Shown: positions 2,770 through 35,063 of the stretch, piece after piece
Layout: each line of letters opens with the position of its first letter
How positions within the stretch are numbered: position 1 is the stretch's first letter
Source: Alphaproteobacteria bacterium
GTDB lineage: Bacteria > Pseudomonadota > Alphaproteobacteria > SMXQ01
DNA length: 64,000 nt
Assembly (NCBI GenBank): GCA_038145705.1
Contig: JAYQQF010000011.1
Location: 43,753-107,752 of the forward strand
Direction: 5' to 3'
Program-made: the position numbers and the translations under genes
The notes under the pieces: generated by a model
What the model saw: only the letters and a program-made list of their open reading frames with translations
Databases searched by the model: none
What the model was told of the DNA's origin: nothing

Positions 2770-2770
2770 C

Positions 2771-9890: not shown

Positions 9891-9995
9891 TCTCTCTTTA
9901 CCTCCCGATGAAGCAACATCACCATGTTCGACAAAATCGACAAAGCGCGATAGTGTTTTCGAAATTTAGAAACGATTTCTGCAGGGAGACGAAAA

Positions 9996-15892: not shown

Positions 15893-16669
15893 CTAGCGCT
15901 GTCGCAGGGGCACGCGTTCGCGGGCAAACAGCGGGTTGCCCGCGCCTTCGGCGCGGGCGAGCTTGCGGCAGTAATAATCGTAGAGAACCTGTCCGCCGAC
16001 GATGGCCGGATCGAGCTGGGTGCCTTCTTCCAGCTTGTGGGCCAGTTCGCTTTCCGGCGGCGTCGTGAACTTCAGGTTCGAGCCGTTGATGATCAGACTT
16101 TCCTGGCACATTTTCTCGACGGCGATGGCAATCAGCACCGGGTCCTTGATCGTCGGGCCACAGGTGACCAGCCCGTGGTTGCGCAGCAGCACCGCGTGGT
16201 GGGGACCCATGACCTCGACCATTTCGCACGCCATTTCCTGGGTGCCGACCAGGCCCGAGGAATCTTCGAAGCGCGGCGTGCGCAGGGGCTGCGTCGTTGC
16301 CCGCGGCACGATGGTGGCAAGCGGCTCTTCCGATGCCGAATAAATGGACGCATAGAACGGATGGGTGTGCGCGGTGGCGTCGATATCGGGGCGCAGGCGC
16401 ATCAGCTCCGAATGGATTGGCCATTCGCCGTGCGGCTTGCCGTCGCCCGCGAGCTGGCGGCCCTCGAAGTCGAGCAGCACGAAATCGCGGCGATCGACCA
16501 CCTCGCCGAGAGCGATGCCGGCGCGCTTCATCCACAAGCCACGGCCTTCGGGGTCGCGCAGCGCCATGTGGCCGACGACTCGGTCGCCATGGCCTTCGAG
16601 CTCCAGCACCCGGCAGGCCCGCGCCAGTTCATCGAGATCTGCGGCGAGCGCGTTGCTCATCTCGGCCAT
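15893..16669 (-). CDS. class II aldolase/adducin family protein (paralog of 698..1456)
   Basis: ORF 15893..16768 trimmed to MAEMSNALAADLDELARACRVLELEGHGD...; HTHP metal site. Confidence 0.75.
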   Translation of the reverse strand: MAEMSNALAADLDELARACRVLELEGHGDRVVGHMALRDPEGRGLWMKRAGIALGEVVDRRDFVLLDFEGRQLAGDGKPHGEWPIHSELMRLRPDIDATAHTHPFYASIYSASEEPLATIVPRATTQPLRTPRFEDSSGLVGTQEMACEMVEVMGPHHAVLLRNHGLVTCGPTIKDPVLIAIAVEKMCQESLIINGSNLKFTTPPESELAHKLEEGTQLDPAIVGGQVLYDYYCRKLARAEGAGNPLFARERVPLRQR

Positions 16670-16782
16670 CGGTGTCTCTCCTCCATTTTCCGACCCGCAC
16701 GCTAGCGGCGGGGGCCGGACCTGTCCAGTGCGGCGGTTTGCCGCGAACGAAGGCTGGGATATGCTCATCAGGCAGGGAGAAA

Positions 16783-18375: not shown

Positions 18376-18415
18376 AAAACAAGAAGGGCGTCGAACACCA
18401 GAGGGGGAGCCGCTC

Positions 18416-19721: not shown

Positions 19722-20441
19722 TCAGGCCTGGGCGCGGCGCAGCACGGCGTCGCCCGGCATCTGGCCGATGGCCTTGAACGACGAAATCGAGGCGTTCTCG
19801 ACATGGGCACGGGCCGCGGCACGGGCCGCCGTTATGTCGCGCGCCTCGATGGCGGCAACCAGCGCATCCACCTCGCCGATGCTTTCGGCCTTGCGCTCGG
19901 CGCGCGAGATGGACGCCGCGCGCATCGGACTGGTGCGCAGATGCAGCGTCATCAGCAGGTCGAAGGCCACCGGGTTGCGCGCACCTTCGCATAAGGCGTC
20001 GTAATAGATTTTCTTGGCGTCCAGGATAGCTTCCAGGTCGGCCAGCTGATAGGCGCGCTTGAGACCTTCGCCCGCTTCGCGGAATGCCGCGCAATCGGGC
20101 GCGCTCGCGCGTTCGATGAATTGTTCCGCGATCAGGGCTTCGAGCTCGGCGCGGATGCGATAGATGTTTTCGGCATCTTCCGTCGAAATCGGCGTGACCA
20201 TCAGCCCGCGTACGGTGGAATTGGAAATGACCCGCAGCGCCTCCAGCTCGCGCAGGGCTTCGCGCAGGCAGGTGCGGCTAACGCCGAGCTGCGCGCAGAG
20301 GTCCTTCTCGATCAGGCGTTCGCCCGGCTTGAGCACGCCCATTTCGATGGCCCGGCGCAGCGCCGTGATGATCTTCTGGCGCAGCGGCGCGAATTCGGTC
20401 TTGAGCGGCATCAGCTTGGTCGCAGCTTCGGATACGCTCAT
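19722..20441 (-). CDS. GntR-family transcriptional regulator (FadR/FCD subfamily)
   Basis: 239 aa; N-terminal wHTH (LKPGERLIEKDLCAQLGVSRTCLREALRELE) plus C-terminal FCD-like helical domain. Confidence 0.8.
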   Translation of the reverse strand: MSVSEAATKLMPLKTEFAPLRQKIITALRRAIEMGVLKPGERLIEKDLCAQLGVSRTCLREALRELEALRVISNSTVRGLMVTPISTEDAENIYRIRAELEALIAEQFIERASAPDCAAFREAGEGLKRAYQLADLEAILDAKKIYYDALCEGARNPVAFDLLMTLHLRTSPMRAASISRAERKAESIGEVDALVAAIEARDITAARAAARAHVENASISSFKAIGQMPGDAVLRRAQA

Positions 20442-20517
20442 GGTACGGGCCTTTCTTCGGGGGTTGAACGAAACGGCGTCCCGCCCCGGGGACGGGACGC
20501 CGCAATCACCTTGAAGA

Positions 20518-21621
20518 TCAGGACTTCTTGTCCTTGTTCTTCGACTTCTTCTTCACGTCACAGTTGACCTTGCAGTTCTTCTTGTAGCCCTTCATCGCTT
20601 CCTGGGCCTGTGCCACCAGATGCTTCGGCGTCCCCAGGGCTTCGCGGGTCATGGCATCGAGCGCCTCGCCCGTTTCGGGATCGATGTTGGCCTTCTGCTT
20701 CCCGGCATCGGCAAGGAAGCCCGCGTCCTTCGTCATCCTGGCGAAGCCGTCACGCAGGGCCTTCAGGCGGTCCGCGGGCAGGCCTTCCGGCGCGTTGAAT
20801 GCACGGCCGATGAAACCGCCGATCGACAGGAACTTCAGGATCTGCTGCTTTTCCTTGTCCTTGGTCAGTTCATGCATGAGGGGAAGGTTGGGCAGTTCCT
20901 TCTCGCGCTTGAGGCCGACCTGGACGATCGGGATCAGCTTGCCGGTCTTGAAGTCGTCGAAGTAACGGATGCGCCAGCTGGCCCAGGCGCTCGACTGTGC
21001 CTGGATTTCGCCACGGATCATCGCCAGCGTCTGCGCCGCCGAACCGCGGTAGCCGCAGATCATCTGGAAGTTGGCACCGAGCAGCGACATCATCGCGCGC
21101 GGCATGATGTAGCTCTGCGACCCCGCGCCTGTACAGCCGACAATGACCTTGGTTTTCTGTGCATCGGCGAAGGTCTTGACGTTGGCGTCACTGCGTACCG
21201 CAAAGACCGGATTGATCGGCGTAAAGCTGCCGATATAAGGCAGCTTGGCCGCGTCGAACTTGGCCTTCGACGGGAACAGGAGCTGGCTGACGGCCAGCGT
21301 GTCGGCGAACATGCCGATCATCGAGCCGTCCTTCGGCGCCACGTTGGCGAAGTAGTTGGCGGCCACCAGGCTGCCGGCGCCCGCCATGTTCTGAACGATG
21401 ACGTTGGGCTTGCCGGGGATGAACTTGCCGTAATGCCGTGCGGCGAGCTGGGCGTAGGCGGTGTAGGAACCCGCCGGCGGATAGCCGACGAGGATCTTCA
21501 TCGTCTTGCCCTTGTAGAAATCGGCAACCGAATCGGCCTTGGCCGGGGTGCCGGAAGCCGCGAAGGCCAGCGCCGCGACGGCGCCGATGGCGGCAGGTAC
21601 GAGATTTTTCAGACCACGCAT
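20518..21621 (-). CDS. TctC/Bug-family tripartite tricarboxylate transporter substrate-binding protein with Lys-rich, Cys-containing C-terminal tail
   Basis: ORF 20518..21921 trimmed to MRGLKNLVPAAIGAVAALAFAASGTPAKA (signal peptide, RBS GGGAG); TctC signature GKPNVIVQNMAGAGS; unusual tail ...KGYKKNCKVNCDVKKKSKNKDKKS. Confidence 0.75.
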   Translation of the reverse strand: MRGLKNLVPAAIGAVAALAFAASGTPAKADSVADFYKGKTMKILVGYPPAGSYTAYAQLAARHYGKFIPGKPNVIVQNMAGAGSLVAANYFANVAPKDGSMIGMFADTLAVSQLLFPSKAKFDAAKLPYIGSFTPINPVFAVRSDANVKTFADAQKTKVIVGCTGAGSQSYIMPRAMMSLLGANFQMICGYRGSAAQTLAMIRGEIQAQSSAWASWRIRYFDDFKTGKLIPIVQVGLKREKELPNLPLMHELTKDKEKQQILKFLSIGGFIGRAFNAPEGLPADRLKALRDGFARMTKDAGFLADAGKQKANIDPETGEALDAMTREALGTPKHLVAQAQEAMKGYKKNCKVNCDVKKKSKNKDKKS

Positions 21622-21755
21622 GATCAATCTCCCATTCTGTCCTGTTGATGTCCTCGATTCTGGCGCCCCTTGGTGGGGCTGTTGTATCGGGACCGGGTTG
21701 TTTGGGCCGGCAATGCCGGTACGCGTGCTGGTTACTCCTCCTCTGCTAGTGAATG

Positions 21756-23462
21756 TTACTTCGGATCGCCCTCCACCTCGCGACAGGGGGTCTCCGGAAT
21801 GATTCCCGAAGCGCGGCGCTGGGCCGTGCGACGGCCATTCTCGGCATAGTCGCCCTTGACCGCACGTTCGGCAGCGCGGTCCCAGGCCTCGAACCAGTCG
21901 CCGAGATCGTAGCCGTGCCACGGCGACTGGGCCTTGAGCTGCGGCAGGCCGAGCTTCTCCCAGAGCCGCTTCGCGCCTTCCATGTATTCCTTCTTCGGCA
22001 GCGCGAGCGGCGGCATGTCGCCCTTGAGGGTGGCGTCGATCAGCAGCGTGCCGTCCTCGTTGACGTTGCCCGATTTCGGCCCGTGGCCGCGCGGGCGATG
22101 GTGCAGGACCTCGATGTCGGTCAGCACGTTGGCGCGATAGGCCATCGCCCAGAACACCGCATCGCCGTCATCGGGATCGATGTCGTCGTTGACCGCGATC
22201 ACGTACTTGCCGCAGTCGGCGCGTAGTACGGCGGCGCCGTAAAGCGCGCGCCAGACCTCGGTGCGCGAGGTGGCTCGGTCCATGACCAGGAAGATCACCT
22301 TGCGGATATTGGTGAGCGGCTCGTGCAGCGCCACGCGCTTGACGCCGCGCAGGCCAAGCTGGTCGCGCAGGTGGGCCAGGAACATCGGCTCGTAGGCGAC
22401 GCGCTTGATGACGCTCGATTCGCTCGGCGTGACCTGCGAGATGATCGAGGCCAGCACCGGCTTCTTCTTCATGGTGATCGCCGTCACCTCGAAGATCATG
22501 TTGAAATCCTCGAGCGCGATATGGCCGTGGGATTCGCCGAAGGGGGCTTCCGGTTCAAGATAGGTGGTATCTACCTTGCCCTCGATCACCAGTTCGGCTT
22601 CCGCCGGCACCATCAGGTCGTTGGTCTTGCACTTGACCATGTTGATGGGCGCACCCGCGATGCCGCCGGCCACGTCGGCCTCGTCGCGGTGGGTGCCGAG
22701 CTTCTGCGGGCCGAGATAGGCAACAATGGGCGGCGCGCCGACGACGACGGCACACGGCATCGTCTTGGCGCCCTTCTTCTGGTACTTGAGCCAGTGCAGG
22801 TAGCCGCCGGCACCGCCTTCGCGGCTCGCCATGCGCACGGCGAGGCGGTTCGTCGCCTTGAGCCCGGCGCGATAAGTGCCCATGTTCTGCACGCCGGTTT
22901 CGGGATCGACGGTGACGACATTGGTCGCCGTGAAATAGGGTGCCGCGTCGAAACCAGGTGTGGAGATCGGCACCGGCAGGGCGTCGAGGCCCTTGTTGTC
23001 GCCGAGCAGGTCCTTGCCGGTCCACACCACTTCCTGGCAGGGCGCCGTCTTGACCACCTTGGGCGGGATCGGCTTCGCCATGCCGCGTTCCCAGCGCGCA
23101 CCGATCTCTTCAAGGGGCGCGTTCATGCCGATGGCATAGATATCCTGGTTGGCGGCCAGCGCGCCGACCACCACGGGCATGTCGAACTTGCGCCCACGCG
23201 CGTCGGTGACGTTGGTAAACAGGAAGGCCTTGCGCTCGCCCTCCTTGAGCCCGCCGCGGAACTGCCAGCGCACCAGCGGGTGCAACTCGGTGTCCTTGTT
23301 GACGGGCTCATCGATGGTGACAAGAAGCCCGGCCGCCTCGAGTGCCGCGAGGTGCTCCTGCAAATCGCGGTAGCCGCGCTTGGGCAGGGCGGGAATGCGG
23401 CCCTTGCCCGCCTTTGCGGACTTCGTCTTCTTGGTCTTGTCGAGCGCGGCTTTCTTCGCCAT
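21756..23462 (-). CDS. UbiD-family (prFMN-dependent) decarboxylase with Lys-rich N-terminal extension
   Basis: ORF 21756..23588 trimmed to MAKKAALDKTKKTKSAKAGKGRIPALPKRGYRDLQEHLAALEAAG...; UbiD core about 530 aa; no UbiX-like gene in window. Confidence 0.75.
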   Translation of the reverse strand: MAKKAALDKTKKTKSAKAGKGRIPALPKRGYRDLQEHLAALEAAGLLVTIDEPVNKDTELHPLVRWQFRGGLKEGERKAFLFTNVTDARGRKFDMPVVVGALAANQDIYAIGMNAPLEEIGARWERGMAKPIPPKVVKTAPCQEVVWTGKDLLGDNKGLDALPVPISTPGFDAAPYFTATNVVTVDPETGVQNMGTYRAGLKATNRLAVRMASREGGAGGYLHWLKYQKKGAKTMPCAVVVGAPPIVAYLGPQKLGTHRDEADVAGGIAGAPINMVKCKTNDLMVPAEAELVIEGKVDTTYLEPEAPFGESHGHIALEDFNMIFEVTAITMKKKPVLASIISQVTPSESSVIKRVAYEPMFLAHLRDQLGLRGVKRVALHEPLTNIRKVIFLVMDRATSRTEVWRALYGAAVLRADCGKYVIAVNDDIDPDDGDAVFWAMAYRANVLTDIEVLHHRPRGHGPKSGNVNEDGTLLIDATLKGDMPPLALPKKEYMEGAKRLWEKLGLPQLKAQSPWHGYDLGDWFEAWDRAAERAVKGDYAENGRRTAQRRASGIIPETPCREVEGDPK

Positions 23463-23521
23463 TTCGCTGGTGCTCCGGAACAAAAATGGGGATGGCCCCG
23501 GCAAGCCGGGGCTATCACATC

Positions 23522-25288
23522 TTACAGGTATTCCACCATGGGGCGGCGCACATATTCGGGCGCGACGCGGACGTCGAGCACGAAGCACTTACCCGCCTTC
23601 ACGGCAGCAAGCGCGCGCTTCAGGCCATCGGCAACGGCGGCGATGTCGTCGATGCGCTCACCTTCCCATCCTTGCGCGCGGGCGATGCCGACGAGATCGG
23701 CGTCCGGGCCCTCCATGCGCTGGCCGATCGGCGCGTTTTCTTCCGGCCGGCCGCGATGATGCGCGATGTGCTTCTGGTGTTCTTCGTCGTTGTAGTAGGA
23801 ACGGTTGTTGGCGACGACCAGCAGCATCGGGATCTTCTGGTTGGCCGCCGTCCACAGGGCGTTGACCCCCATCATGAAATCGCCGTCGCCCAGCACCGCG
23901 ACCGGGATGCGGCCGGGCGCCGTGTCGCGCAGCGCAAGCGCCGCGCCGACCGCCATGCCCGGGCCGGAGCCAACGCCGCCGCCGCCGTTCGAGCCGAGGA
24001 AATCGAGCGGGCCTTCGATGAAGTTGCCGTTGGGCGGCCAGCCCAGCGAACGCGACATGATGCTGATCGGCTCACCCTGGGTCACGGCCGCGAACACGCG
24101 GGCAAGGTCGTTGATGTTGACCGGGCCCGACTTGGCATCGGGTTCGGGAACCTCGGGCAGCGGACGCGCGGCTGGCTTCGGCTTCTTCGCCACGTTGGCG
24201 CGCGCGAGGCCTTCGAGCAGGCAGACGACCGCCGTTTCCGGCACCGTCGCCATCCACACATCGACGGCGGGCATGATCTCGTAATCCATGCTCCAGCCGT
24301 TGTGGATACGATAGTCGTTGCTGACGTTGATAACGACGGGGCCCTTGCCGGAGCCGGGCGGGAAGGCCTGCTGCACGGTACCGGCGGGATCGACCCAGTC
24401 GAGGCTGAGCACGACGTCGGCCTGTTTCACCAGTTCGACCAGCGACGGGCGCAGCTTCCAGCCGGTTTCACCGGCGTAAAGCGGATGGGAGGTCGGGAAG
24501 CTCGCCGCATCCTTGAGGCTGGTGAGAACCCGCGCCCCCAGCCATTCAGCCAGTTCCACGCGCTTGTCCCAGCCATCCTGGGAGCGCGAAACGCGGCCCG
24601 ACAGGATCAGCGGGTTCTTGGCCTTGGCGAGCGCGGCGACGGCCTGTTCGATGGCGCTGCGCGGCGGCTCGTTGTCGGCGGCGGGCTGGTAGCGCGAGAC
24701 GTCCTCGAACTTCGGCCACTCGTCCAGCTCCATTTCCTGGATCGCGGCGTCGAGGTTGATGTAGCAGGGGCCCGCGGGGCGCGCGCGCGCGATGGTGAAG
24801 GCGCGGCGGATCGATTCGACGGCAGCCGCAGGCGAGGCCGGCTGGTCGTCCCACTTCGTGTAGCCGCGCACCAGCGCGCCCTGGTCGGCGCAGGTGTGGA
24901 TCCAGTCGATCCACGGACGGCGCTTCATGGCGTCGACCGGGCCCGTGGCGCCCAGCAGCACCACCGGCATGCGGTTGCACCAGGCGTTGAAGACGGCCAT
25001 GCTGGCATGCATCAGCCCGACGTTGGAATGGACGATGGCGGCAAGCGGCGTGCCCGTGACCGTCGCCCAGCCGTGAGCCATGGCGACGGCGTGTTCTTCA
25101 TGCATGCAGACGATCATCTGCGGCGTCTTGTTGCCGAGAAAGTTAACGAGGCTGTCGTGCAGGCCACGGTAGCTGGCGCCGGGGTTGAGGCAGACGTAGG
25201 GCACATTTTGTTCCCGCAGCGCCTGGGCAATGACGTCGGACCCCCAAATCTTGTTGGCGTTCTTGGGGTCAGGACCGTGATCGGGCAT
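23522..25288 (-). CDS. thiamine diphosphate-dependent enzyme (acetolactate synthase/benzoylformate decarboxylase superfamily), paralog 1
   Basis: 588 aa; N-terminal Pyr domain (NPGASYRGLHDSL...MHEEHAVAMAHG), central domain, C-terminal PP domain with GDGDFMMG...NN TPP-binding motif. Confidence 0.8.
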   Translation of the reverse strand: MPDHGPDPKNANKIWGSDVIAQALREQNVPYVCLNPGASYRGLHDSLVNFLGNKTPQMIVCMHEEHAVAMAHGWATVTGTPLAAIVHSNVGLMHASMAVFNAWCNRMPVVLLGATGPVDAMKRRPWIDWIHTCADQGALVRGYTKWDDQPASPAAAVESIRRAFTIARARPAGPCYINLDAAIQEMELDEWPKFEDVSRYQPAADNEPPRSAIEQAVAALAKAKNPLILSGRVSRSQDGWDKRVELAEWLGARVLTSLKDAASFPTSHPLYAGETGWKLRPSLVELVKQADVVLSLDWVDPAGTVQQAFPPGSGKGPVVINVSNDYRIHNGWSMDYEIMPAVDVWMATVPETAVVCLLEGLARANVAKKPKPAARPLPEVPEPDAKSGPVNINDLARVFAAVTQGEPISIMSRSLGWPPNGNFIEGPLDFLGSNGGGGVGSGPGMAVGAALALRDTAPGRIPVAVLGDGDFMMGVNALWTAANQKIPMLLVVANNRSYYNDEEHQKHIAHHRGRPEENAPIGQRMEGPDADLVGIARAQGWEGERIDDIAAVADGLKRALAAVKAGKCFVLDVRVAPEYVRRPMVEYL

Positions 25289-25404
25289 GATGTCTCCGTT
25301 CGGATGGGGTGTTGTATATGACGATCATAATGTATTACTAAAACCAGTCCACCTTGTGGACCCCCACAGTCACGATCACCGCAAATTTTTCAGATAGGCC
25401 GAAG

Positions 25405-27819
25405 ATGCCCAAGGACGCCCATCACGCGAGCCTCGAAACCGAACTCGACACTCCCGACGCGGAAGGCTTCCGCGCCATCGGCCAGCCGATCCGCCGCAAG
25501 GAAGACGAGCGGCTGCTGACCGGCAAGGGGCGCTTCTCTGACGATTTTGCCCTGCCCGGACAGACCTACGCGGTGATGGCGCGCTCGCCCTACCCGCACG
25601 CGCGCATCAAGGAAATCCGCAAGGAGAGCGTCGCCAGCATGCCTGGCGTACTCGGCGTGTTCACGGGCAAGGATGTGCTGGCGGAAAACATCGGCCCCAT
25701 CCCGCACGACCCGGTGCCTTCGACCAAGTACGACATGAAGCTGACGGCGCCCGACGGCACCCGCAACGTCTTCATCGGCCCCCATTACCTGCTGCCCGCC
25801 GACCGCGCCCGACATGTCGGCGAGGCCGTCGCCATGGTCGTCGCCGAAACCCGCGACCAGGCGCAGGATGCGGCGGAAGCCCTCGATATCGTTTACGAGG
25901 AACTGCCTTTCGTTGCGGGGACCGCGGCGGCGGCGGAACCCGGCGCGCCCGCCGTCTGGGACGAGGTTCCCGACAACGTCTTCATCGACACCTGGTTCGG
26001 CGACAAGGACGCTACCGACCGCGCCTTCACCCGCGCCGATCACGTGTTTTCGATGGATTTCCATATTGACCGCGTCACCGGCGTACCGATGGAACCGCGC
26101 GCGGCGCTGGCCGCGCTCGACGAGCGGACCGGCAACTTCACCCTGTGGGCGGGATCAGGCGGCGCCGTGCGCCAGAAGCGCGAGCTCGCAAGCATCCTCG
26201 GCATCCCGCAGGACAAGCTGCGCGTGCTGTCCTTCGATGTCGGCGGCAACTTCGGCACGCGCAACCGCGTCTATGTCGAGTTCGGCCTCGTGCTGTGGGC
26301 GGCGCGCACGCTCAAGCGCCCGGTCAAGTTCACCGCGACGCGGTCCGAAGCCTTCCTGTCGGACTACCAGGGCCGCGACCTTGTCACCAAGGTGTCGCTG
26401 GCGATGGATAAGTCGGGGAAGTTCCTCGCCATGCGGGCCGACAACATTTCCAATGTCGGCGCGCGCTGCGTGTCGCTGTCGCCGCTCGGCAAGGGTTCAG
26501 CGCTGATTACCGGCTCCTACGACATTCCGGTGGCGAGCCTTCATGCCCGCGCCGTGTTCACCAACACCATGTGCACCCAGGCCTACCGTTCATCGGGACG
26601 GCCGGAGGTGAACTTCGCGCTCGAACGCCTGATCGATACGGCGGCGCGCGAGCTGGGCTTCGACCGCATCGATCTGCGCCGCAGGAATTTCGTGCCGCCC
26701 GCGAAGATGCCCTACATGAACCCGGTCGGCGCCCAGTACGACAGCGGCACCTATGAAGCCAACCTCGATCTTTCGATGAAGATCGCGGACTGGGACGGCT
26801 TCGCCGCGCGGCGCAAGGAAAGCGAAGCGCGCGGGCGCCTGCGCGGCCTCGGCCTCGGCCATTACGTCGAATCCTCGATCGGCTCGCCGAAGGAACGCGC
26901 CGACATCTCGGTGCACGGGGAAGGCACGGTGACCGTGGTCATCGGCACCCAGCCCTCGGGCCAGGGCCACGAAACCAGCTTTTCGCAGGTAGTGGCGGAC
27001 CGCCTCGGCGTGCCGTTCTCCGCCGTGCGCATCGTCATCGGCGACACCGACGTGGTGAAGGCGGGCGGCGGCAGCCATTCGGGCCGCTCCATGCGCCATG
27101 CCGGCACGGTGATGAGCATGGCGTCGAACGACCTGATCGCCAAGGGCAAGCGCATCGCGGCGGTGCTGTGGAACGTGCCCGCCGACACGGTCATGTGGGA
27201 AGACCATCGCTTCACCCTGCCCGGCACCAACCATGCGCTCAACGTGTTCGACCTTGCGCGCGAGGCGGCCAAGGCGTCGCTGCCCGACGACCTTGCCGAC
27301 GGGCTTGCGGTCAGCCGCGAAAACGAAATGCACGACCCGGTATTCCCCAACGGCTGCGCCATCTGCGAGGTCGAGGTTGACCCCGAGACCGGCCGCGTCG
27401 ACCTGGTGCGCTATACCTCCATCGACGACGTCGGGCGCTGCATCAATCCGCTGATCGTCCACGGCCAGACCCATGGCGGCGTGGCGCAAGGCGTCGGCCA
27501 GGCGATGTGGGAACAGTGCGTCATCGATCCCGATTCGGGCCAGCCGATGATCGGCACCTTCATGGACTACGGCATGCCGCGGTCCGACAACATCCCCTCG
27601 ATCACCTCCGAAATCGTCGAAGTGCTGTCGCCGACCAACCCGCTCGGCATCAAGGCAGGCGGCGAAGGCGGCACGACGCCCGCCCTTTCGGTCGTCACCA
27701 ACGCCGTCATCGACGCGCTGTGGCCGCTCGGCGTGCGCGACATCAAGATGCCGCTGACCCCCATTACCGTATGGCGCGCCATTCAGGCCGCGAAGAAGAA
27801 AGGGAATATCGGAAAATGA
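25405..27819 (+). CDS. xanthine dehydrogenase/CoxL-family molybdopterin-binding large subunit (molybdenum hydroxylase)
   Basis: ORF 25354..27819 trimmed to MPKDAHHASLETELDTPDAEGFRAIGQPIRRKEDERLLTGKGRFSDD...; about 804 aa aldehyde oxidase/xanthine dehydrogenase a/b hammerhead + MoCo-binding domains; no FeS small or FAD medium subunit gene adjacent. Confidence 0.8.
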   Translation: MPKDAHHASLETELDTPDAEGFRAIGQPIRRKEDERLLTGKGRFSDDFALPGQTYAVMARSPYPHARIKEIRKESVASMPGVLGVFTGKDVLAENIGPIPHDPVPSTKYDMKLTAPDGTRNVFIGPHYLLPADRARHVGEAVAMVVAETRDQAQDAAEALDIVYEELPFVAGTAAAAEPGAPAVWDEVPDNVFIDTWFGDKDATDRAFTRADHVFSMDFHIDRVTGVPMEPRAALAALDERTGNFTLWAGSGGAVRQKRELASILGIPQDKLRVLSFDVGGNFGTRNRVYVEFGLVLWAARTLKRPVKFTATRSEAFLSDYQGRDLVTKVSLAMDKSGKFLAMRADNISNVGARCVSLSPLGKGSALITGSYDIPVASLHARAVFTNTMCTQAYRSSGRPEVNFALERLIDTAARELGFDRIDLRRRNFVPPAKMPYMNPVGAQYDSGTYEANLDLSMKIADWDGFAARRKESEARGRLRGLGLGHYVESSIGSPKERADISVHGEGTVTVVIGTQPSGQGHETSFSQVVADRLGVPFSAVRIVIGDTDVVKAGGGSHSGRSMRHAGTVMSMASNDLIAKGKRIAAVLWNVPADTVMWEDHRFTLPGTNHALNVFDLAREAAKASLPDDLADGLAVSRENEMHDPVFPNGCAICEVEVDPETGRVDLVRYTSIDDVGRCINPLIVHGQTHGGVAQGVGQAMWEQCVIDPDSGQPMIGTFMDYGMPRSDNIPSITSEIVEVLSPTNPLGIKAGGEGGTTPALSVVTNAVIDALWPLGVRDIKMPLTPITVWRAIQAAKKKGNIGK

Positions 27820-28739
27820 CCGATCTTAAACTCATCTGCTTTCCCGGCGCGCCCAACCTGCCGATCTTCGCCGCCATCGAAAAGGGCTGGTTTGCCGCGA
27901 ACGGCGTCAACGTCAAGCTGACGACGACGCCTTCTTCCGCCTTTCAGGCCGAGAACCTCGCCAACGGCACGTTTGACATCGCCGGCACCGCTTTCGACAA
28001 CGTCGTCGCCTACCGCGAAAAGCAGGGCGCGGTGATGATCGACCCGGTTCCCGATTTCTTCGCCTTCATGGGCGCGACGCAGATTGAACTGGCGCTGGTC
28101 GCGGCCAAGGACGTGAAGTCCGTTGCCGATCTCAAGGGCCGCTCTGTGGCGCTCGATGCGCTGGCGACGGGCTTCGCCTTCGTGCTTTACGAAATGCTGG
28201 AACGTGCCGGCCTCAAGCAGGCGGACGTCGAAATGGCCGCCGTCGGCGCCACGCCCCTGCGCTGGGAATCGGTGCGCGCGGGCACCCATGCGGCGACGCT
28301 GACCATCGAGCCGTTCACCTCGATCGCCCGCGCCCAGGGCTTCAACGTGGTCGAAACCAGCACCAACATGTTCGCCGCCTACCAGGGTGGCTCTTTCGCC
28401 GCCCGCTATTCCTGGGCATCGGCCAACGCCGACGCGGTCAAGGGCTTCATCCGGGGCTACCTCAAGGGCCTCGACTGGACGCTCGATCCCGCCAACAAGG
28501 ACGAGGCGGTGAAGCTGCTTCTCGCCAACATGGACGGCATCAAGCCGGAAGTCGCGCCCAAGGTCGTCGCCAACCTCGTCAACCCGCGCTCGGGCCTGAC
28601 GCCCAAGGCGGCCTTCCTGCCCGACGGCGTGGCGACGGTGCTGGAACTGCGCCGGCGCTACGGCGGCGGCAAGGCCAATGCCGACCCGGCCCGCTACATC
28701 GACACCAGCTTCTACGACGACGCCGTCAAGGGCGTCTGA
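27816..28739 (+). CDS. NMT1/THI5-like (SsuA/TauA-like PBP fold) protein without signal peptide
   Basis: MTDLKLICFPGAPNLPIFAAIEKGWFAANGVNVKL...; ATG overlaps Mo-hydroxylase stop (ATGA), so translationally coupled; no export signal, so likely cytoplasmic. Confidence 0.7.
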   Translation: MTDLKLICFPGAPNLPIFAAIEKGWFAANGVNVKLTTTPSSAFQAENLANGTFDIAGTAFDNVVAYREKQGAVMIDPVPDFFAFMGATQIELALVAAKDVKSVADLKGRSVALDALATGFAFVLYEMLERAGLKQADVEMAAVGATPLRWESVRAGTHAATLTIEPFTSIARAQGFNVVETSTNMFAAYQGGSFAARYSWASANADAVKGFIRGYLKGLDWTLDPANKDEAVKLLLANMDGIKPEVAPKVVANLVNPRSGLTPKAAFLPDGVATVLELRRRYGGGKANADPARYIDTSFYDDAVKGV

Positions 28740-28760: not shown

Positions 28761-29234
28761 ATGGAAATTCGCCGCGTCGTTATCGGCCACGACAAGGACG
28801 GCAAGGCCGTCGTCGAACAGGACGCCCTGATGTCTAACGTCAAGGTCATGCCGTCGGGCCATTCGGGCTGCGTCATGTGGGCGACCGACGGTTCGCCCGC
28901 CGATCCCGACGTGGCCGAGGACCCCGCCGCCAAGGACCGCCCCCTGCCGCCGCCCGAAAACGGCACCGTGCTCCGCATCCTCCAGCTGGTGCCGCACAAG
29001 CCCGCCTTCATGCATCGCACCGACACGGTCGATTACTGCATCGTCCTTGAGGGCGAATGCTTCATGAAGATGGACGACGACAAGGAAGTGAAGCTGAAGC
29101 AGGGCGACATCCTGATCCAGAAGGGCACCTGGCACGGCTGGGAAAACCGCTCGGACGCGACCTGCCGGCTGGCCTTCGTGCTGATCGACGGCAAGGCGCC
29201 GGCCAAGACCCTGCACCCGACGCTCGGGCACTAG
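28761..29234 (+). CDS. cupin domain protein
   Basis: 157 aa; GTWHGWEN cupin motif. Confidence 0.7.
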   Translation: MEIRRVVIGHDKDGKAVVEQDALMSNVKVMPSGHSGCVMWATDGSPADPDVAEDPAAKDRPLPPPENGTVLRILQLVPHKPAFMHRTDTVDYCIVLEGECFMKMDDDKEVKLKQGDILIQKGTWHGWENRSDATCRLAFVLIDGKAPAKTLHPTLGH

Positions 29235-29238: not shown

Positions 29239-30042
29239 TTATTTCACGAGCTTGCGAAGGCTGGCGACCTCGGCGCTGGCGGCCTGCTGCAGCAGCACGC
29301 CGTCGACGCGGCCCATGAGGAAACGTCCGCCCATTTCCACCACCTGGTTCAGAACCGGGCCTTCCTTGATGCCGCCGACGCCGAGCGCCTTGCCGTGCCT
29401 GCGGCAGGCCTCCGCCGTGCGGCGATAGGCGTCAAGCACCTTCGGATCGTCGAGCTTGCCGGGAATGCCCATCTCGGCACAAAGATCGTTGGTGCCGATC
29501 AGGAGCATGTCGACGCCCTCGACGGCGGCGATGGCATCGGCATTGTCGATCGCTTCGGGGCTTTCCAGCATGGTCACGAGAACCGTGTTGGCGTTGATCA
29601 GTCGGTAGGATTCCTCGATACCGACGGACAGCCCAGCGAGCGGCCCGTAGCCCGCGAGCGAGCGGTTGCCGAGCGGCGGATAGCGGCAGGCCGCGACGCA
29701 GGCGCGCGCCGTTTCGGCATCGTCCACATGGGGGACGATGACGCCATGACAGCCGCCATCGAGCACGCGGCTGATCCAGTCGTGATCGTGGGACGGAACG
29801 CGGGCCATCGGCACCACGCCCGCAAGGGCCGCCGCCTGGGCGATCTGGGCGACATGATCGAGGGAGAGCGTCGAATGTTCGAGGTCGCAATAGAGCGCGT
29901 CGTAGCCCGCCAGCCGGACGATCTGGGCGATTTCGACCGTGCGCGAGAACCGCACCGTGGCGCAGAGCGTCAGCGCGCCGGCGGCAAGCCGCGCCTTCAT
30001 CTGCGCGCCGAGAAGTCCCGGAATGTCCTTTGCGTCCGCCAT
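29239..30042 (-). CDS. HpcH/HpaI-family 2-keto-3-deoxy-acid (pyruvate) aldolase
   Basis: 267 aa; HpcH/HpaI aldolase/citrate-lyase fold hallmarks (LGNRSL, IGTNDL). Confidence 0.75.
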   Translation of the reverse strand: MADAKDIPGLLGAQMKARLAAGALTLCATVRFSRTVEIAQIVRLAGYDALYCDLEHSTLSLDHVAQIAQAAALAGVVPMARVPSHDHDWISRVLDGGCHGVIVPHVDDAETARACVAACRYPPLGNRSLAGYGPLAGLSVGIEESYRLINANTVLVTMLESPEAIDNADAIAAVEGVDMLLIGTNDLCAEMGIPGKLDDPKVLDAYRRTAEACRRHGKALGVGGIKEGPVLNQVVEMGGRFLMGRVDGVLLQQAASAEVASLRKLVK

Positions 30043-30151: not shown

Positions 30152-31159
30152 CTACTTGATCGCCGCGGCCGCCTTCGGAATCAGGTTCTTGGGCGTGGCG
30201 TAGAGCTTTTCGACCATCTTGGCGACATCCTCGCCGCGCAGGGGATCGATGATGCCGCGCTTGGTCTTGATCGATTCGTCGATCAGGGCCTTGTCGTGGA
30301 TCGTCTTCCAGAACGACTCGCGCAGCACCGCAACCTTGTCCATCGGCACCTTGCTGGACACGATGAAGGGCCGGAAGATCAGGTTGTGGGTGGTCACCAG
30401 ATCGATGATCTGCTTCTGCTCGTCGTTGGCGAACTCGCTGATGTGCGGGATGCCCTTGAGCTCCGGCACGTTGACCTTGGAGATGCGGATGAAGATGTTG
30501 GTCTTTTTCTCCGCAAGCCAGTGCGGCGGCACGCTTTCCCACGTGCCGCAGTCGCCGTCCAGCTCGCCGCGCTCGACCGCGAGGCGCTGCTCGGTGGCGC
30601 CCGGATAGCCGACGATCTGCTTGATCTTGGCGCCGAACACGTTCTTCAGGATCGCTGCATCGAGGTAGGTCGAAGCGGAATTGCCCGTGTGGCCGGTGGA
30701 GAACTGGCTCTTCTTCAGGAGATCCTGGAAGGTCTTCACTCCCGTCGTGTGCCAGGCATGGCAGACGCGGGCATCGGCGGTGGCGCTGCCGATGAAGTGG
30801 ACGTCCTTGGAAAAGTCCGCCTTGACCTTGTTGGGCGTCAGCAGCGAGCCCAGCACCAGGCCGGGATTGAACAGCACGATGTAGGTGCCGTCGGTCGGCG
30901 CAGCCTTGAGGGACTGCACCGCCTTGAACGAACCGGCGCCCGGCATGTTGCTGACGACGATGCTGGGCTTGCCCGGGATATGGGCGCCCAGGTGACGGCC
31001 GACCATGCGGCCGAAGGCATCGAAGCCCGCACCCGCCGACGAACCGACGACGATGCGCATGTTCTTGCCGCCCGAGAAGCTCTCGGCGGCGAAGGACGAG
31101 GTCGCGGCAACCACGCCCGCGACCAACGCCAGACCCGGGAAAACGCCAGCAATCTTCAT
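30152..31159 (-). CDS. TctC/Bug-family substrate-binding protein, paralog 2
   Basis: ORF 30152..31240 trimmed to MKIAGVFPGLALVAGVVAATSSFAAES (signal); FSGGKNMRIVVGSSAGAGFDAFGR; GKPSIVVSNMPGAGS. Confidence 0.8.
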   Translation of the reverse strand: MKIAGVFPGLALVAGVVAATSSFAAESFSGGKNMRIVVGSSAGAGFDAFGRMVGRHLGAHIPGKPSIVVSNMPGAGSFKAVQSLKAAPTDGTYIVLFNPGLVLGSLLTPNKVKADFSKDVHFIGSATADARVCHAWHTTGVKTFQDLLKKSQFSTGHTGNSASTYLDAAILKNVFGAKIKQIVGYPGATEQRLAVERGELDGDCGTWESVPPHWLAEKKTNIFIRISKVNVPELKGIPHISEFANDEQKQIIDLVTTHNLIFRPFIVSSKVPMDKVAVLRESFWKTIHDKALIDESIKTKRGIIDPLRGEDVAKMVEKLYATPKNLIPKAAAAIK

Positions 31160-31178
31160 GGGAAAGGTCTCCTGTAGG

Positions 31179-32186: not shown

Positions 32187-32411
32187 GTGACACTCCGGAT
32201 TTTATTATGGGAGGGTGGCCGTTGACGGCCGACGTATTATTGTATTATCGGCAATATGCTAGCATCCCCCCGAGCCGGTCAACTCGAATTGACAGTGGTG
32301 AAAACGGGGGTTTTCCGGCGCTTTGGAACATGCCGAGACCGCAAAAAAAGATGTTTCCGGGCAGAAATTCCCGCAATCGACGGAATTCCCGGGAGCAGCA
32401 TAGGGGGGACC

Positions 32412-33227: not shown

Positions 33228-33255
33228 TCTTCCCTTCCTGACAGGAGACAACAGC

Positions 33256-35049: not shown

Positions 35050-35063
35050 AAGGGGGATACGCG

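What the first reader, a model, noticed from the sequence alone, without database searches (positions are those of the whole stretch)
19722..25288. TPP-dependent enzyme - UbiD decarboxylase - TctC binding protein - GntR/FCD regulator co-oriented unit, with no UbiX
Four co-oriented genes with short spacers (59, 134 and 76 nt) look like a self-contained uptake-plus-transformation unit for an aromatic or dicarboxylic acid. The components are a Bug/TctC SBP, a prFMN-dependent (de)carboxylase and a TPP-dependent lyase/decarboxylase, all under an FCD-type regulator. A UbiD enzyme needs UbiX-made prFMN, and no ubiX is nearby. The UbiD carries an unusual 30-aa Lys-rich N-terminal extension, and the TctC has a Lys/Cys-rich tail. 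The pairing of TPP enzyme with decarboxylase recurs at 32412..36059 (hydrolase-TPP-PhtD-like), so the TPP enzyme may be the common step of two parallel routes. A candidate undescribed pathway.
Basis: inference. Interest (0 to 1): 0.6.

Follow-up and report, generated by a model that had tools for sequence, protein, structure and literature searches.

The report
Uncharacterised aromatic-acid decarboxylation gene cluster
The four genes are real and belong together, but they are only half of a widespread, still uncharacterised bacterial gene set that always pairs this unusual UbiD decarboxylase with a molybdenum hydroxylase, probably to break down a multiply carboxylated aromatic or heteroaromatic acid.

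Summary
On the minus strand lie a TPP enzyme (23522-25288), a UbiD-family decarboxylase (21756-23462), a TctC-like binding protein (20518-21621) and a GntR/FCD regulator (19722-20441), with spacers of 59, 134 and 76 nt. The 64-kb window has no ubiX.

Orthologues of all four proteins recur together on Neorhizobium and Sinorhizobium megaplasmids (42-62% identity) and in several MAGs. The unit is not self-contained, though. The most constant partner of this UbiD clade is an XOR-family molybdenum hydroxylase, found within 10 kb in 40 of 49 dereplicated loci. Here it is transcribed divergently (25405-27819), followed by a cytoplasmic NMT1-like protein and a cupin.

UbiX is adjacent in about 27% of related loci, so its absence here is ordinary. 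A strong hairpin after tctC suggests gntR is transcribed separately.

The UbiD is neither the ubiquinone enzyme nor the recently described xanthine-8-carboxylate decarboxylase (31% identity to a proxy). Its closest solved structure is HmfF (about 30%). The binding protein's Cys/poly-Lys tail is conserved and, in every locus examined, sits near this UbiD clade.

The substrate is unknown. Best reading: catabolism of an aromatic or heteroaromatic polycarboxylate. I found no description of this pathway.

The parts
23522..25288 (-). TPP-dependent enzyme (588 aa), benzoylformate-decarboxylase-like. It is below the cut-off of every named NCBIfam equivalog.
   Evidence: Pfam TPP_N/M/C. Best NCBIfam match is PRK08327, 245 bits against a cut-off of 456. 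Best PDB match is benzoylformate decarboxylase 4Q9D, E=3.5e-28. 59% identical to the Neorhizobium cluster protein.
21756..23462 (-). UbiD-family (prFMN-type) decarboxylase, 568 aa. It belongs to a long-form clade with a conserved C-terminal extension of about 85 aa.
   Evidence: Pfam UbiD_N/UbiD/UbiD_C. Below all NCBIfam cut-offs. The listed homologues are 532-568 aa apart from two of 687 aa. Catalytic and metal residues are invariant in A1. Closest PDB match is HmfF 6H6V, about 30% identity.
20518..21621 (-). Periplasmic TctC/Bug-like solute-binding protein (367 aa). It has a Sec signal peptide (..AKA|DS) and the conserved C-terminal tail KGYKKNCKVNCDVKKKSKNKDKKS.
   Evidence: Pfam TctC, 48 bits. 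Best PDB matches are terephthalate-binding proteins, E~1e-8. Tail conserved in the subfamily.
19722..20441 (-). GntR/FCD (FadR-subfamily) transcription regulator, 239 aa.
   Evidence: Pfam GntR plus FCD. 55% identical to the regulator inside the Neorhizobium cluster.
20473..20503 (-). 14-bp GC-rich hairpin followed by GUUUCGUU. It looks like a terminator and lies between tctC and gntR.
   Evidence: Scan hit. RNA fold -40.2 kcal/mol, z=-3.24. Terminator-like hairpins lie after the TctC-like gene in L001 and L004.
25289..25404 (.). Divergent control region between the TPP gene and the Mo-hydroxylase operon. It holds a sigma-70-like promoter (TGGACT-16-TATGAT, minus strand), a GT-N3-AC box (GTAATAC) and the inverted repeat TATGA-TCG-TCATA.
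   Evidence: Promoter scan. The block GGTGGACT..GTTTT.GTAnnACATTATGATCGTCATAT is conserved between the window, L092 and L001. GTATGAC/GTCATAC boxes lie upstream of UbiD and TctC in Neorhizobium and Sinorhizobium.
25405..27819 (+). Molybdopterin-binding large subunit of an XOR/CoxL-type Mo hydroxylase (804 aa). Its active-site loop reads AYRSSGR, so it lacks the Cys of CO dehydrogenase. No FeS or FAD subunit gene is in the window.
   Evidence: Pfam Ald_Xan_dh_C/MoCoBD_1/MoCoBD_2. PDB matches: CoxL 8UEM E=1e-127, KdhL and Qor. 65% identical to the Neorhizobium orthologue. A Mo large subunit lies within 10 kb of this UbiD clade in 40 of 49 loci. CoxS and CoxM are absent.
27816..28739 (+). Cytoplasmic NMT1/SsuA-like protein (307 aa, no signal peptide). 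Its start overlaps the Mo-subunit stop (ATGA).
   Evidence: Pfam NMT1/NMT1_2. The overlap was read directly. An orthologue sits between the Mo large subunit and CoxG/S/M in Neorhizobium and S. meliloti.
28761..29234 (+). Cupin_2 protein (157 aa), third gene of the Mo-hydroxylase operon.
   Evidence: Pfam Cupin_2. PDB 3ES1, of unknown function, E=5e-30. In the same position in L001-L006 and L092.
29239..30042 (-). HpcH/HpaI-type 4-hydroxy-2-oxo-acid aldolase (267 aa), conserved next to the Mo operon in close relatives.
   Evidence: Pfam HpcH_HpaI. NCBIfam HpaI/GarL about 121 bits, below cut-off. Seen in L001-L006 and L092.
30152..32186 (-). Two further TctC-like binding-protein paralogues, without the poly-Lys tail (ORFs 30152-31240 and 31179-32186).
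   Evidence: Same de novo cluster (c8) as the tailed TctC. tblastn Bug hits.
15893..16768 (-). Class II aldolase/adducin-family protein, a possible non-oxidative decarboxylase. A protein of the same family, but not a clear orthologue, follows the TctC-like gene in L001-L006.
   Evidence: Pfam Aldolase_II. Weak match to 3,4-dihydroxyphthalate decarboxylase PhtC, 82 bits against a cut-off of 200. Positions in L001-L006 and L092. Only 21-26% identical to the class II aldolase-family genes of L001.
32256..36059 (+). Second, parallel module: PcaD-like hydrolase (32256-33227), TPP2 (ORF 33124-35049) and a 4,5-dihydroxyphthalate-decarboxylase homologue (35064-36059).
   Evidence: 9JP7 match at E=4e-68.

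Best explanation
This is one arm of a GntR-controlled catabolic gene set for an unidentified aromatic or heteroaromatic di- or polycarboxylic acid.

Proposed steps (all inferred):
1. The periplasmic TctC-like protein, with its Cys-x3-Cys/poly-Lys tail, captures the anionic substrate. It hands it to a TctA/B membrane unit encoded outside the window.
2. The benzoylformate-decarboxylase-like TPP enzyme removes the carboxyl of a 2-oxo-acid (glyoxylyl) group.
3. The CoxL-type Mo hydroxylase, transcribed divergently from the same control region, oxidises an electron-poor carbon. This is either the resulting aldehyde, giving the acid, or a ring C-H, giving C-OH.
4. The long-form UbiD removes a ring carboxyl group, using prFMN made by an unlinked UbiX.
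5. The cupin, the NMT1-like protein, the HpcH aldolase and the class II aldolase-like protein process the product.
6. The GntR/FCD protein represses the divergent promoter through GT-N3-AC-type boxes until the substrate or an intermediate binds it.

Shown here: the gene families, their co-conservation, the conserved catalytic residues of UbiD, the adjacency of UbiX in relatives, and the conserved promoter/operator block.

Not shown: the substrate, the order of reactions, the role of each accessory protein, and the regulation.
For: Families of the four genes and their neighbours.

Size of the clade: more than 8000 database clusters at E<=1e-10. The best 120 are 66-98% identical (two listed without a value), mostly from uncultured Alphaproteobacteria.

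Neighbourhood of 49 dereplicated loci with at least 6 kb on both flanks:
- Mo large subunit 82%
- CoxM 55%
- TctC family 47%
- CoxS 45%
- TPP enzyme 31%
- amidohydrolase_2 31%
- UbiX 27%

Orthologous sets: six proteins are shared with the Neorhizobium plasmid at 42-65% identity, or about 58% for the NMT1-like protein. That cluster also carries UbiX, CoxS/M/G, a second Mo subunit and TctAB.

Shuffled but recurrent sets occur in L091 and L095-L097, including TPP-UbiD with no spacer and tandem UbiDs.

UbiD residues: the equivalents of Fdc1 N168, R173, H191, E233, E277 and E282 are N193, R198, H223, E261, E305 and E310. All are invariant in A1. The Fdc1 numbering is from my own knowledge.

Closest relatives: benzoylformate decarboxylase for the TPP enzyme, and terephthalate-binding proteins for the binding protein, weakly.

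Several other non-oxidative decarboxylase families lie in the window.

The promoter/operator block is conserved.
Against: - No substrate can be deduced. The accessory genes differ widely among loci of this UbiD clade, so specificity may differ within the clade.
- The window has no FeS or FAD subunit for the Mo enzyme, no TctA/B and no UbiX. The system cannot work from this locus alone.
- The TPP enzyme is present in only 31% of loci and the orthologous GntR in 10%.
- The role assigned to the Mo enzyme (aldehyde or ring carbon) is not discriminated by any test here.
- The hairpins after the TPP gene and after tctC leave the transcript structure open.
Confidence: 0.6

Rival explanations
1. Side-chain trimming of an aryl-glyoxylate that carries a second carboxyl group, for example a carboxyphenylglyoxylate. 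The TPP enzyme makes the aldehyde, the Mo enzyme acts as an aldehyde oxidoreductase to give the aromatic dicarboxylate, and UbiD removes a ring carboxyl. This is a specific version of the best explanation.
For: - The TPP enzyme is closest to benzoylformate decarboxylase.
- The best NCBIfam match of the Mo subunit is an aldehyde-oxidising enzyme, glyceraldehyde dehydrogenase alpha: 534 bits against a cut-off of 790.
- The TPP and Mo genes share a divergent promoter region.
- TPP2 is paired with a dihydroxyphthalate-decarboxylase homologue.
- The best PDB matches of the binding protein are terephthalate binders.
- The surrounding island has LigXa-like Rieske oxygenases, LigB, RraA-like and PcaD-like genes.
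Against: - The TPP enzyme is missing from 69% of loci that still keep the Mo enzyme.
- CoxL-type enzymes closest in PDB include N-heterocycle hydroxylases, KdhL and Qor.
- There is no direct evidence for any aryl-glyoxylate.
Confidence: 0.3
2. Catabolism of an N-heteroaromatic carboxylate, such as a pyridine, pteridine-like or similar di- or tricarboxylate. The Mo enzyme hydroxylates a ring carbon next to nitrogen and UbiD then decarboxylates. The logic is analogous to the lumazine pathway.
For: - The only published cluster I found that combines an XOR-family hydroxylase with a UbiD/UbiX decarboxylase degrades lumazine and pterins (PMC12391406).
- Many related loci have the order CoxM-CoxS-MoCoL-amidohydrolase_2-UbiD.
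- PDB neighbours of the Mo subunit include 6-hydroxypseudooxynicotine dehydrogenase and quinoline 2-oxidoreductase.
- The closest solved UbiD, HmfF, acts on a heteroaromatic dicarboxylate.
Against: - No amidase, deaminase or other nitrogen-releasing gene is conserved next to the window-type cluster.
- Neighbours in other loci look like carbocyclic ring-cleavage genes: gentisate- or homogentisate-like cupins, FAH and extradiol dioxygenase.
- Dipicolinate catabolism is known to need neither molybdenum cofactor nor UbiD (PMC11472048).
Confidence: 0.3
3. It is the known pterin/lumazine degradation cluster, and the UbiD is xanthine-8-carboxylate decarboxylase.
For: It combines a Mo hydroxylase with a UbiD, and the Paracoccus version also has a GntR regulator.
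Against: - A Paracoccus plasmid locus matches the published gene content: two amidohydrolases, UbiD, UbiX, a GTPase, a CDA-like amidohydrolase and XDH subunits. Its UbiD is 456 aa and only 31% identical to the window protein.
- The window has none of the following next to UbiD: the amidohydrolase pair, the GTPase or the deaminase.
- Caveat: the LA-1 XCDC sequence itself was not available, so the Paracoccus protein is a proxy.
Confidence: 0.03
4. It is an HMF/furan-2,5-dicarboxylate pathway and the UbiD is an HmfF orthologue.
For: - HmfF is the best PDB match.
- A GMC oxidoreductase (36061-38046) and an enoyl-CoA hydratase (38878-39708) lie within 17 kb.
- The hmf cluster of Cupriavidus basilensis also has a Bug-type binding protein and a Mo dehydrogenase (my own knowledge).
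Against: - Identity is only about 30%, and the window protein has an extra C-terminal extension.
- There is no HmfG (UbiX), no furoyl-CoA synthetase and no FeS or FAD subunit in the window.
- Gene content differs across the clade.
Confidence: 0.05
5. It is the housekeeping UbiD of ubiquinone biosynthesis, lying by chance beside unrelated genes.
For: Some source databases label homologues '4-hydroxy-3-polyprenylbenzoate decarboxylase'.
Against: - PRK10922 scores 131 bits against a cut-off of 788, and TIGR00148 scores 185 against 245.
- The gene sits in catabolic clusters with a binding protein, a Mo hydroxylase and a TPP enzyme across genera.
- It is plasmid-borne in rhizobia.
Confidence: 0.01

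Closest known systems
Pterin/lumazine degradation cluster I of Cupriavidus sp. LA-1: LuDH Mo-dehydrogenase, DHLI isomerase, XCDC UbiD-type decarboxylase and UbiX (PMC12391406)
   Same: An XOR-family Mo hydroxylase and a prFMN-type UbiD decarboxylase work in one catabolic cluster. UbiX is in the cluster in part of the relatives. The Paracoccus version has a GntR regulator.
   Different: - The XCDC-type UbiD (Paracoccus proxy) is 456 aa and 31% identical. It lacks the C-terminal extension.
- The window has no DHLI amidohydrolase pair, GTPase or pterin deaminase.
- The window adds a TPP enzyme, a TctC-like binding protein, an NMT1-like protein, a cupin and an HpcH aldolase.
HmfF/HmfG furan-2,5-dicarboxylate decarboxylase and the hmf cluster (Pelotomaculum HmfF structure 6H6V)
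   Same: HmfF is the best solved-structure match, and the active-site motifs QN.G.YR and E.PFGE are the same. It is a UbiD acting on a heteroaromatic dicarboxylate, in a cluster that also has a Mo dehydrogenase and a Bug-type binding protein (my own knowledge).
   Different: Identity is about 30%. There is no adjacent UbiX, CoA ligase or FeS/FAD subunit here. The window protein is a longer form with a conserved C-terminal region.
Benzoylformate decarboxylase of the mandelate pathway
   Same: The TPP enzyme has the same three-domain architecture. Benzoylformate decarboxylases are its best PDB match and its second-best NCBIfam match.
   Different: It scores 166 bits against a cut-off of 493, so it is not an orthologue. 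It belongs to an unnamed subfamily nearest PRK08327. Its genomic partners here are UbiD and a Mo enzyme, not mandelate genes.
TphC/TBP terephthalate-binding proteins and other Bug/TctC binding proteins of tripartite tricarboxylate transporters
   Same: It hits the same Pfam family, and terephthalate binders are the top PDB matches. In related loci a fused TctA/B gene is adjacent.
   Different: The similarity is very weak (E~1e-8). This protein is longer and carries a conserved Cys-x3-Cys plus poly-Lys C-terminal tail, which I did not find described. The window has no TctA/B.
DipR, the GntR/FadR repressor of the dipicolinate (dip) cluster (PMC11472048)
   Same: It is a FadR/FCD-type regulator of an aromatic dicarboxylate catabolic cluster. 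Its short operator GWATAC resembles the GTAATAC and GTATGAC boxes seen here.
   Different: The dip pathway uses a monooxygenase and needs neither molybdenum cofactor nor UbiD. No orthology between the regulators was tested.

Membership tests
UbiD family of prFMN-dependent (de)carboxylases | UbiD N-terminal, core and C-terminal domains | tested here: met
   Pfam PF20695, PF01977 and PF20696 are all above their cut-offs.
UbiD family of prFMN-dependent (de)carboxylases | Mn2+/prFMN-phosphate ligands (Asn, His, Glu) and the Glu-Arg-Glu catalytic network | tested here: met
   N193, R198, H223, E261, E305 and E310 are invariant in 26 sequences. The motifs align with HmfF. The mapping to Fdc1 numbering is from memory.
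UbiD family of prFMN-dependent (de)carboxylases | A UbiX flavin prenyltransferase supplies the cofactor | tested here: inconclusive
   There is no UbiX in the 64-kb window. UbiX is adjacent in 13 of 49 related loci and in the Neorhizobium and S. meliloti clusters. The rest of the source genome is not available.
UbiD family of prFMN-dependent (de)carboxylases | Decarboxylase activity | not testable with these tools
   This needs biochemistry.
Canonical UbiD (4-hydroxy-3-polyprenylbenzoate decarboxylase) | Score above the NCBIfam equivalog cut-off | tested here: not met
   PRK10922 scores 131.5 bits against 788. TIGR00148 scores 184.6 against 244.85.
Xanthine-8-carboxylate decarboxylase / lumazine cluster I | The UbiD is orthologous to XCDC. 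The paper counted genes with more than 60% amino-acid similarity to those of cluster I | tested here: not met
   Identity is 31% and similarity 45% to the UbiD of a Paracoccus plasmid locus with the published gene content.
Xanthine-8-carboxylate decarboxylase / lumazine cluster I | Adjacent DHLI alpha/beta amidohydrolase_2 pair, LA1_0143-type GTPase and pterin deaminase | tested here: not met
   None lies within 10 kb of the UbiD in the window or in L001-L006 and L092.
HmfF (furan-2,5-dicarboxylate decarboxylase) | Orthologue-level similarity and an adjacent HmfG | tested here: not met
   The match to PtHmfF scores 117.8 bits at about 30% identity. There is no UbiX/HmfG in the window.
Tripartite tricarboxylate transporter (TTT) | TctC/Bug-type periplasmic binding protein | tested here: met
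   PF03401 scores 48 bits against a cut-off of 27. A signal peptide is read in the sequence.
Tripartite tricarboxylate transporter (TTT) | TctA and TctB membrane components in the locus | tested here: not met
   tblastn found nothing in the window. A fused TctA/B is adjacent in L004-L007, L087, L088, L091, L095 and L097.
GntR family, FadR/FCD subfamily | N-terminal winged HTH plus C-terminal FCD domain | tested here: met
   PF00392 and PF07729 are above their cut-offs.
TPP-dependent decarboxylase/ALS superfamily | TPP_enzyme_N, M and C domains | tested here: met
TPP-dependent decarboxylase/ALS superfamily | Membership of a named equivalog (BFDC, ALS, Xsc, glyoxylate carboligase and others) | tested here: not met
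   All the matches listed are below their cut-offs. The best is PRK08327, 244.7 against 456.
XOR-family molybdenum hydroxylase | Large-subunit a/b-hammerhead and two MoCo-binding domains | tested here: met
   PDB CoxL, KdhL and Qor match at E<=1e-100.
XOR-family molybdenum hydroxylase | [2Fe-2S] and FAD subunits encoded alongside | tested here: not met
   CoxS and CoxM have no homologue in the window. They are present in 45% and 55% of related loci.
Aerobic CO dehydrogenase (form I) | Active-site loop with the Cu-binding Cys (VAYRCSFR) | tested here: not met
   The translation reads QAYRSSGRPE. The signature is from my own knowledge.

The most novel reading that the evidence does not exclude
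The system degrades highly anionic, electron-poor aromatic polycarboxylates. Examples are benzene polycarboxylic acids from oxidised lignin, humic matter or black carbon, or heteroaromatic tricarboxylates. In this reading:
- the poly-Lys tail of the binding protein acts as an electrostatic antenna for the polyanion;
- the Mo hydroxylase attacks a carbon made electrophilic by flanking carboxyl groups rather than by ring nitrogen;
- one or two long-form UbiDs, together with TPP-type, class II aldolase-type and PhtD-type decarboxylases, strip the carboxyl groups one after another.

This would be a widespread, undescribed route for a large environmental carbon pool.
Probability: 0.08. Interest if true: 0.85.

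Novelty: new variant of a known kind. Interest (0 to 1): 0.5.

Why it matters
UbiD enzymes are sought as reversible (de)carboxylation catalysts, yet few clades have a known substrate. This clade is very abundant in soil, freshwater and marine Alphaproteobacteria and Betaproteobacteria, with more than 8000 database clusters. It has a fixed partnership with a Mo hydroxylase. The only published UbiD/Mo-hydroxylase partnership I found, in 2025, is for pterins and involves a different clade.

Finding the substrate would add a new catabolic pathway. It would give a function to a large orphan group of CoxL-like proteins and to an unnamed TPP-enzyme subfamily. It might also explain a conserved Cys/poly-Lys tail on a periplasmic binding protein.

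Cultured carriers make this directly testable: Neorhizobium petrolearium OS53, Sinorhizobium fredii NGR234 and Paraburkholderia caledonica.

Tried and rejected
- Exact-sequence look-up of the window UbiD found nothing.
- A tblastn transfer of window proteins to 86 loci suggested at first that only close relatives share the neighbourhood. De novo ORF clustering was needed to see the family-level partners.
- I called an ORF at 16768-18192 (minus strand) as a gene. It is spurious. The real gene is a plus-strand sulfatase.
- The motif ATACAACA(N)CCCCA, shared by the TPP and TctC upstream regions, is only marginally above chance: 2 matches against 0.29 expected, and 1 of 100 shuffles reached 2.
- Generic repeat finding in 19.4-30.2 kb gave only noise.
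- The hairpin in the UbiD-TctC spacer is visible in each sequence by eye. It gave no consensus structure in a four-sequence alignment and z=-1.9 alone.
- The hairpin after the TPP gene is not better than shuffles (z=-1.1).
- No riboswitch or other Rfam family was found in the window apart from one tRNA-Ser.
- Nine full-text searches found no description of this cluster. They covered UbiD with pyridine carboxylates, Mo enzymes, TTT transporters, rhizobial megaplasmids, sequence-similarity networks and poly-Lys binding proteins.
- The dipicolinate dip cluster was considered and rejected. It needs neither molybdenum cofactor nor UbiD.
- The Bosea plasmid UbiD (27% identity) belongs to an unrelated acyl-CoA-type cluster.
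- No supplementary text of the lumazine paper is held, so the LA1_0150 sequence could not be obtained.
- NMT1-like protein versus PhtD-like protein: no detectable similarity by BLASTP.

Full report
**1. Observation**

The minus strand carries four ORFs:
- 23522-25288, 588 aa
- 21756-23462, 568 aa
- 20518-21621, 367 aa
- 19722-20441, 239 aa

The spacers are 59, 134 and 76 nt. Pfam assigns these ORFs to a three-domain TPP enzyme, a UbiD-family protein (UbiD_N, UbiD, UbiD_C), a TctC-type binding protein (48 bits, cut-off 27) and a GntR/FCD regulator.

None reaches the cut-off of a named NCBIfam equivalog:
- The UbiD scores 131 bits against 788 for the ubiquinone enzyme, and 185 against 245 for the general subfamily model.
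- The TPP enzyme is nearest PRK08327 (245 against 456), then benzoylformate decarboxylase (166 against 493).

Metagenome contigs that are 96-98% identical (L092-L094) have the same gene lengths and order, which supports the starts.

**2. Surroundings**

On the plus strand, divergent from the TPP gene, lies an operon of three genes:
- an XOR/CoxL-type Mo-hydroxylase large subunit (25405-27819);
- a cytoplasmic NMT1/SsuA-like protein (27816-28739), whose start overlaps the preceding stop (ATGA);
- a Cupin_2 protein (28761-29234).

Further genes follow:
- an HpcH-type aldolase (29239-30042, minus strand);
- two untailed paralogues of the TctC-like protein (30152-32186);
- a second module of a PcaD-like hydrolase, TPP2 (51% identical to TPP1) and a homologue of solved 4,5-dihydroxyphthalate decarboxylase (E=4e-68).

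The wider window is a chromosomal aromatic-catabolism island. It holds LigXa-type Rieske oxygenases, LigB, RraA-like proteins, amidohydrolase_2 and CMD. It ends in rplU-obg-proB.

tblastn with proteins from related, annotated loci finds none of the following anywhere in the 64 kb: UbiX, CoxS, CoxM, CoxG, TIGR02444 or TctA/B. No riboswitch is present.

**3. The UbiD clade**

The protein has more than 8000 database relatives at E<=1e-10. The best 120 cluster representatives are 66-98% identical (two are listed without a value). They are 532-568 aa long, apart from two of 687 aa, and come mostly from uncultured Alphaproteobacteria.

An alignment of 26 of them (A1) shows three things:
- The Lys-rich N-terminus is variable and absent from most members.
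- A C-terminal region of about 85 residues beyond the UbiD_C domain is conserved.
- N193, R198, H223, E261, E305 and E310 are invariant. These correspond to the Mn/prFMN ligands and the Glu-Arg-Glu network of Fdc1 (numbering from my own knowledge). The same motifs align with HmfF, the best solved-structure match at about 30% identity.

**4. Neighbourhood statistics**

I took 80 genome loci together with the metagenome and plasmid loci fetched. I called ORFs, clustered them and built family HMMs.

Among 49 loci that were dereplicated at 95% UbiD identity and had at least 6 kb on both sides, the following lay within 10 kb of the UbiD:

| Partner | Share of loci |
|---|---|
| Mo-hydroxylase large subunit | 82% |
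| CoxM | 55% |
| TctC-family protein | 47% |
| CoxS | 45% |
| TPP enzyme of this subfamily | 31% |
| amidohydrolase_2 | 31% |
| UbiX | 27% |
| TIGR02444 protein | 18% |
| orthologous GntR | 10% |

A rough expectation for a Mo large subunit within 20 kb of a random gene is a few percent. This is my own estimate from typical copy numbers. The partnership is therefore the defining feature of the clade.

**5.

A Neorhizobium petrolearium plasmid carries two adjacent sets of genes:
- CoxM-CoxS-CoxG-NMT1-like-MoCoL in one direction;
- divergent from it, UbiD-MoCoL2-GntR-UbiX, followed by a TIGR02444 gene, TctC, the TPP enzyme and TctA/B.

| Protein | Identity to the window protein |
|---|---|
| UbiD | 62% |
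| TPP enzyme | 59% |
| Mo subunit | 65% |
| GntR | 55% |
| TctC | 42% |

A Sinorhizobium meliloti megaplasmid has the same set. UbiD homologues of about 62% identity lie on S. fredii, Phyllobacterium and Rhizobium jaguaris replicons.

More distant MAG loci reshuffle the same parts:
- TPP-UbiD with no spacer, TctC, TctA/B and UbiD-MoCoL (L095);
- CoxM/S/L opposite UbiD-UbiD-NMT1-like-TctC-TPP (L096);
- TctC, TctA/B and MoCoL-UbiD (L097; L091).

Recurrence with changing gene order is good evidence for a functional system. It also always reaches beyond them.

**6. Transcription and regulation**

- A 14-bp GC hairpin followed by GUUUCGUU lies after tctC (-40 kcal/mol, z=-3.2). L001 and L004 have hairpin plus T-run terminators at the same place. 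gntR is therefore probably transcribed on its own or by read-through.
- The hairpin after the TPP gene is not significant (z=-1.1).
- The 116-nt divergent region holds a sigma-70-like promoter.
- It also holds the block GGTGGACT..GTTTT.GTAnnACATTATGATCGTCATAT, which is conserved between the window, L092 and L001. This block contains a GT-N3-AC box and the inverted repeat TATGA-TCG-TCATA.
- GTATGAC/GTCATAC boxes occur upstream of UbiD and TctC in Neorhizobium and Sinorhizobium.

These are candidate operators for the FadR-type regulator. This is inference only.

**7. The binding-protein tail**

The tail KGYKKNCKVNCDVKKKSKNKDKKS is not noise.
- Of the 120 best database relatives, 51 end in a run of at least four Lys, preceded by C-x3-C or, in a few, C-x2-C.
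- These 51 include nearly all full-length relatives that are at least 48% identical.
- All eight dereplicated loci with such a tailed protein, for which DNA context was obtained, have a long-form UbiD within 8 kb.
- The protein has a Sec signal peptide, so the tail is periplasmic.
- I found no description of such a tail, and its role is unexplained.

**8. Comparison with known systems**

*Lumazine/pterin cluster of Cupriavidus LA-1.* This is the only published cluster I found that pairs an XOR-family hydroxylase with a UbiD/UbiX decarboxylase (PMC12391406). A Paracoccus plasmid locus with exactly that gene content has a 456-aa UbiD. That protein is only 31% identical to the window protein. The window lacks the amidohydrolase pair, the GTPase and the deaminase. 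This is therefore a different clade and a different pathway. The caveat is that LA1_0150 itself could not be retrieved.

*HmfF.* It is the closest structure but not an orthologue.

*Dipicolinate catabolism.* It uses neither molybdenum cofactor nor UbiD.

*Ubiquinone UbiD.* It is excluded by score and by context.

**9. Mechanism**

The partner families are:
- a carboxylate-type binding protein, whose best PDB matches (weak) are terephthalate binders;
- a benzoylformate-decarboxylase-like TPP enzyme;
- a Mo hydroxylase of the CoxL/Kdh/Qor type, whose best NCBIfam match is an aldehyde-oxidising enzyme;
- one or two UbiDs;
- further non-oxidative decarboxylase families, namely class II aldolase-like and PhtD-like.

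Together these point to the stepwise removal of carboxyl and glyoxylyl groups from an aromatic or heteroaromatic polycarboxylate. prFMN would be supplied by an unlinked UbiX.

Two versions remain open. In one, the Mo enzyme oxidises the aldehyde left by the TPP enzyme. In the other, it hydroxylates a ring carbon, as in N-heterocycle pathways. Nothing computed here separates them. The accessory genes differ among loci, so substrates may differ within the clade.

**10. Verdict**

The pathway does appear to be undescribed, and the four genes belong together.
- The missing ubiX is ordinary.
- gntR is probably a separate transcript.
- Novelty: a new variant of a known kind, that is, a UbiD-containing aromatic-acid catabolic cluster.
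- Interest is moderate. It is raised by the abundance of the clade, the strict Mo partnership, the odd binding-protein tail and the availability of cultured carriers.

Noticed in passing
window 20518-20592 (C-terminus of the TctC-like protein); also L001, L004, L007, L091, L095-L097: The tail 'KGY(K/Q)KNC(K/T)xNC' followed by 6-11 Lys is conserved in this binding-protein subfamily: 51 of the 120 best relatives have it. In all eight dereplicated loci examined, the tailed protein sits within 8 kb of a long-form UbiD. The tail is periplasmic and its function is unknown.
   Followed up: partly
L065, L070, L071, L075, L081, L082, L085, L042, L047; L087 17476-17973; L089 11227-11745: A TIGR02444-family (DUF) gene lies within 300 nt of UbiX, on the same strand, for 9 of 19 UbiX genes. 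It also lies beside UbiX in the annotated Neorhizobium locus and in a Bosea plasmid locus whose UbiD belongs to an unrelated clade. It may be a UbiX/prFMN accessory factor.
   Followed up: partly
window 27816-27819: The Mo-hydroxylase large-subunit stop and the start of the NMT1/SsuA-like gene overlap (ATGA). The NMT1-like protein has no signal peptide. In rhizobial clusters its orthologue sits between the Mo large subunit and CoxG/CoxS/CoxM, which suggests it is a subunit or accessory of the Mo enzyme rather than a transport protein.
   Followed up: partly
window 30152-31240 and 31179-32186 (minus strand): Two further paralogues of the TctC-like binding protein lie in tandem. They lack the poly-Lys tail and had no Pfam hit at E<=0.001.
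   Followed up: partly
window about 16.8-18.375 kb (plus strand; ORF 16297-18375): A sulfatase gene (Pfam Sulfatase and SGSH_C) lies between the class II aldolase-like gene and the LigXa-type Rieske oxygenase, next to a TauD-family dioxygenase (15014-15883). The long minus-strand ORF 16768-18192 is spurious.
   Followed up: yes
L013, L020, L022, L023, L029, L083, L084, L095, L096: Many related loci carry two UbiD-family genes, and L013 three. In L013, L095 and L096 the copies are long-form; in L013 and L096 they are adjacent, and elsewhere they are a few kb apart. This is compatible with successive decarboxylations or with hetero-oligomers.
   Followed up: no
window 25289-25404; L001 5727-5862; L087 11712-11970; L088 11807-11970: A promoter/operator block is conserved between the window and relatives whose UbiD is 87% identical. 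Related GTATGAC/GTCATAC boxes occur in rhizobial clusters. These are candidate GntR/FCD operators.
   Followed up: partly
window 47849-51719 (minus strand): A hydantoinase B / hydantoinase A (oxoprolinase-like) gene pair lies next to a bicupin-like ORF (46594-48276) and a binding protein. Its function is unexplored.
   Followed up: no
window 2-682, 5232-7796 (C-terminal part), 18368-19714: The window has at least two copies of Rieske/LigXa_C-type oxygenase genes, plus a cut Rieske ORF at its left end (2-682). It also has LigB (8982-9965) and two RraA-like genes (2116-3457). This is the flavour of a lignin-derived aromatic catabolism island.
   Followed up: no
L087 760-3381: In Neorhizobium the cluster lies about 3 kb from a modABC molybdate transporter operon. 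That fits a high molybdenum demand.
   Followed up: no
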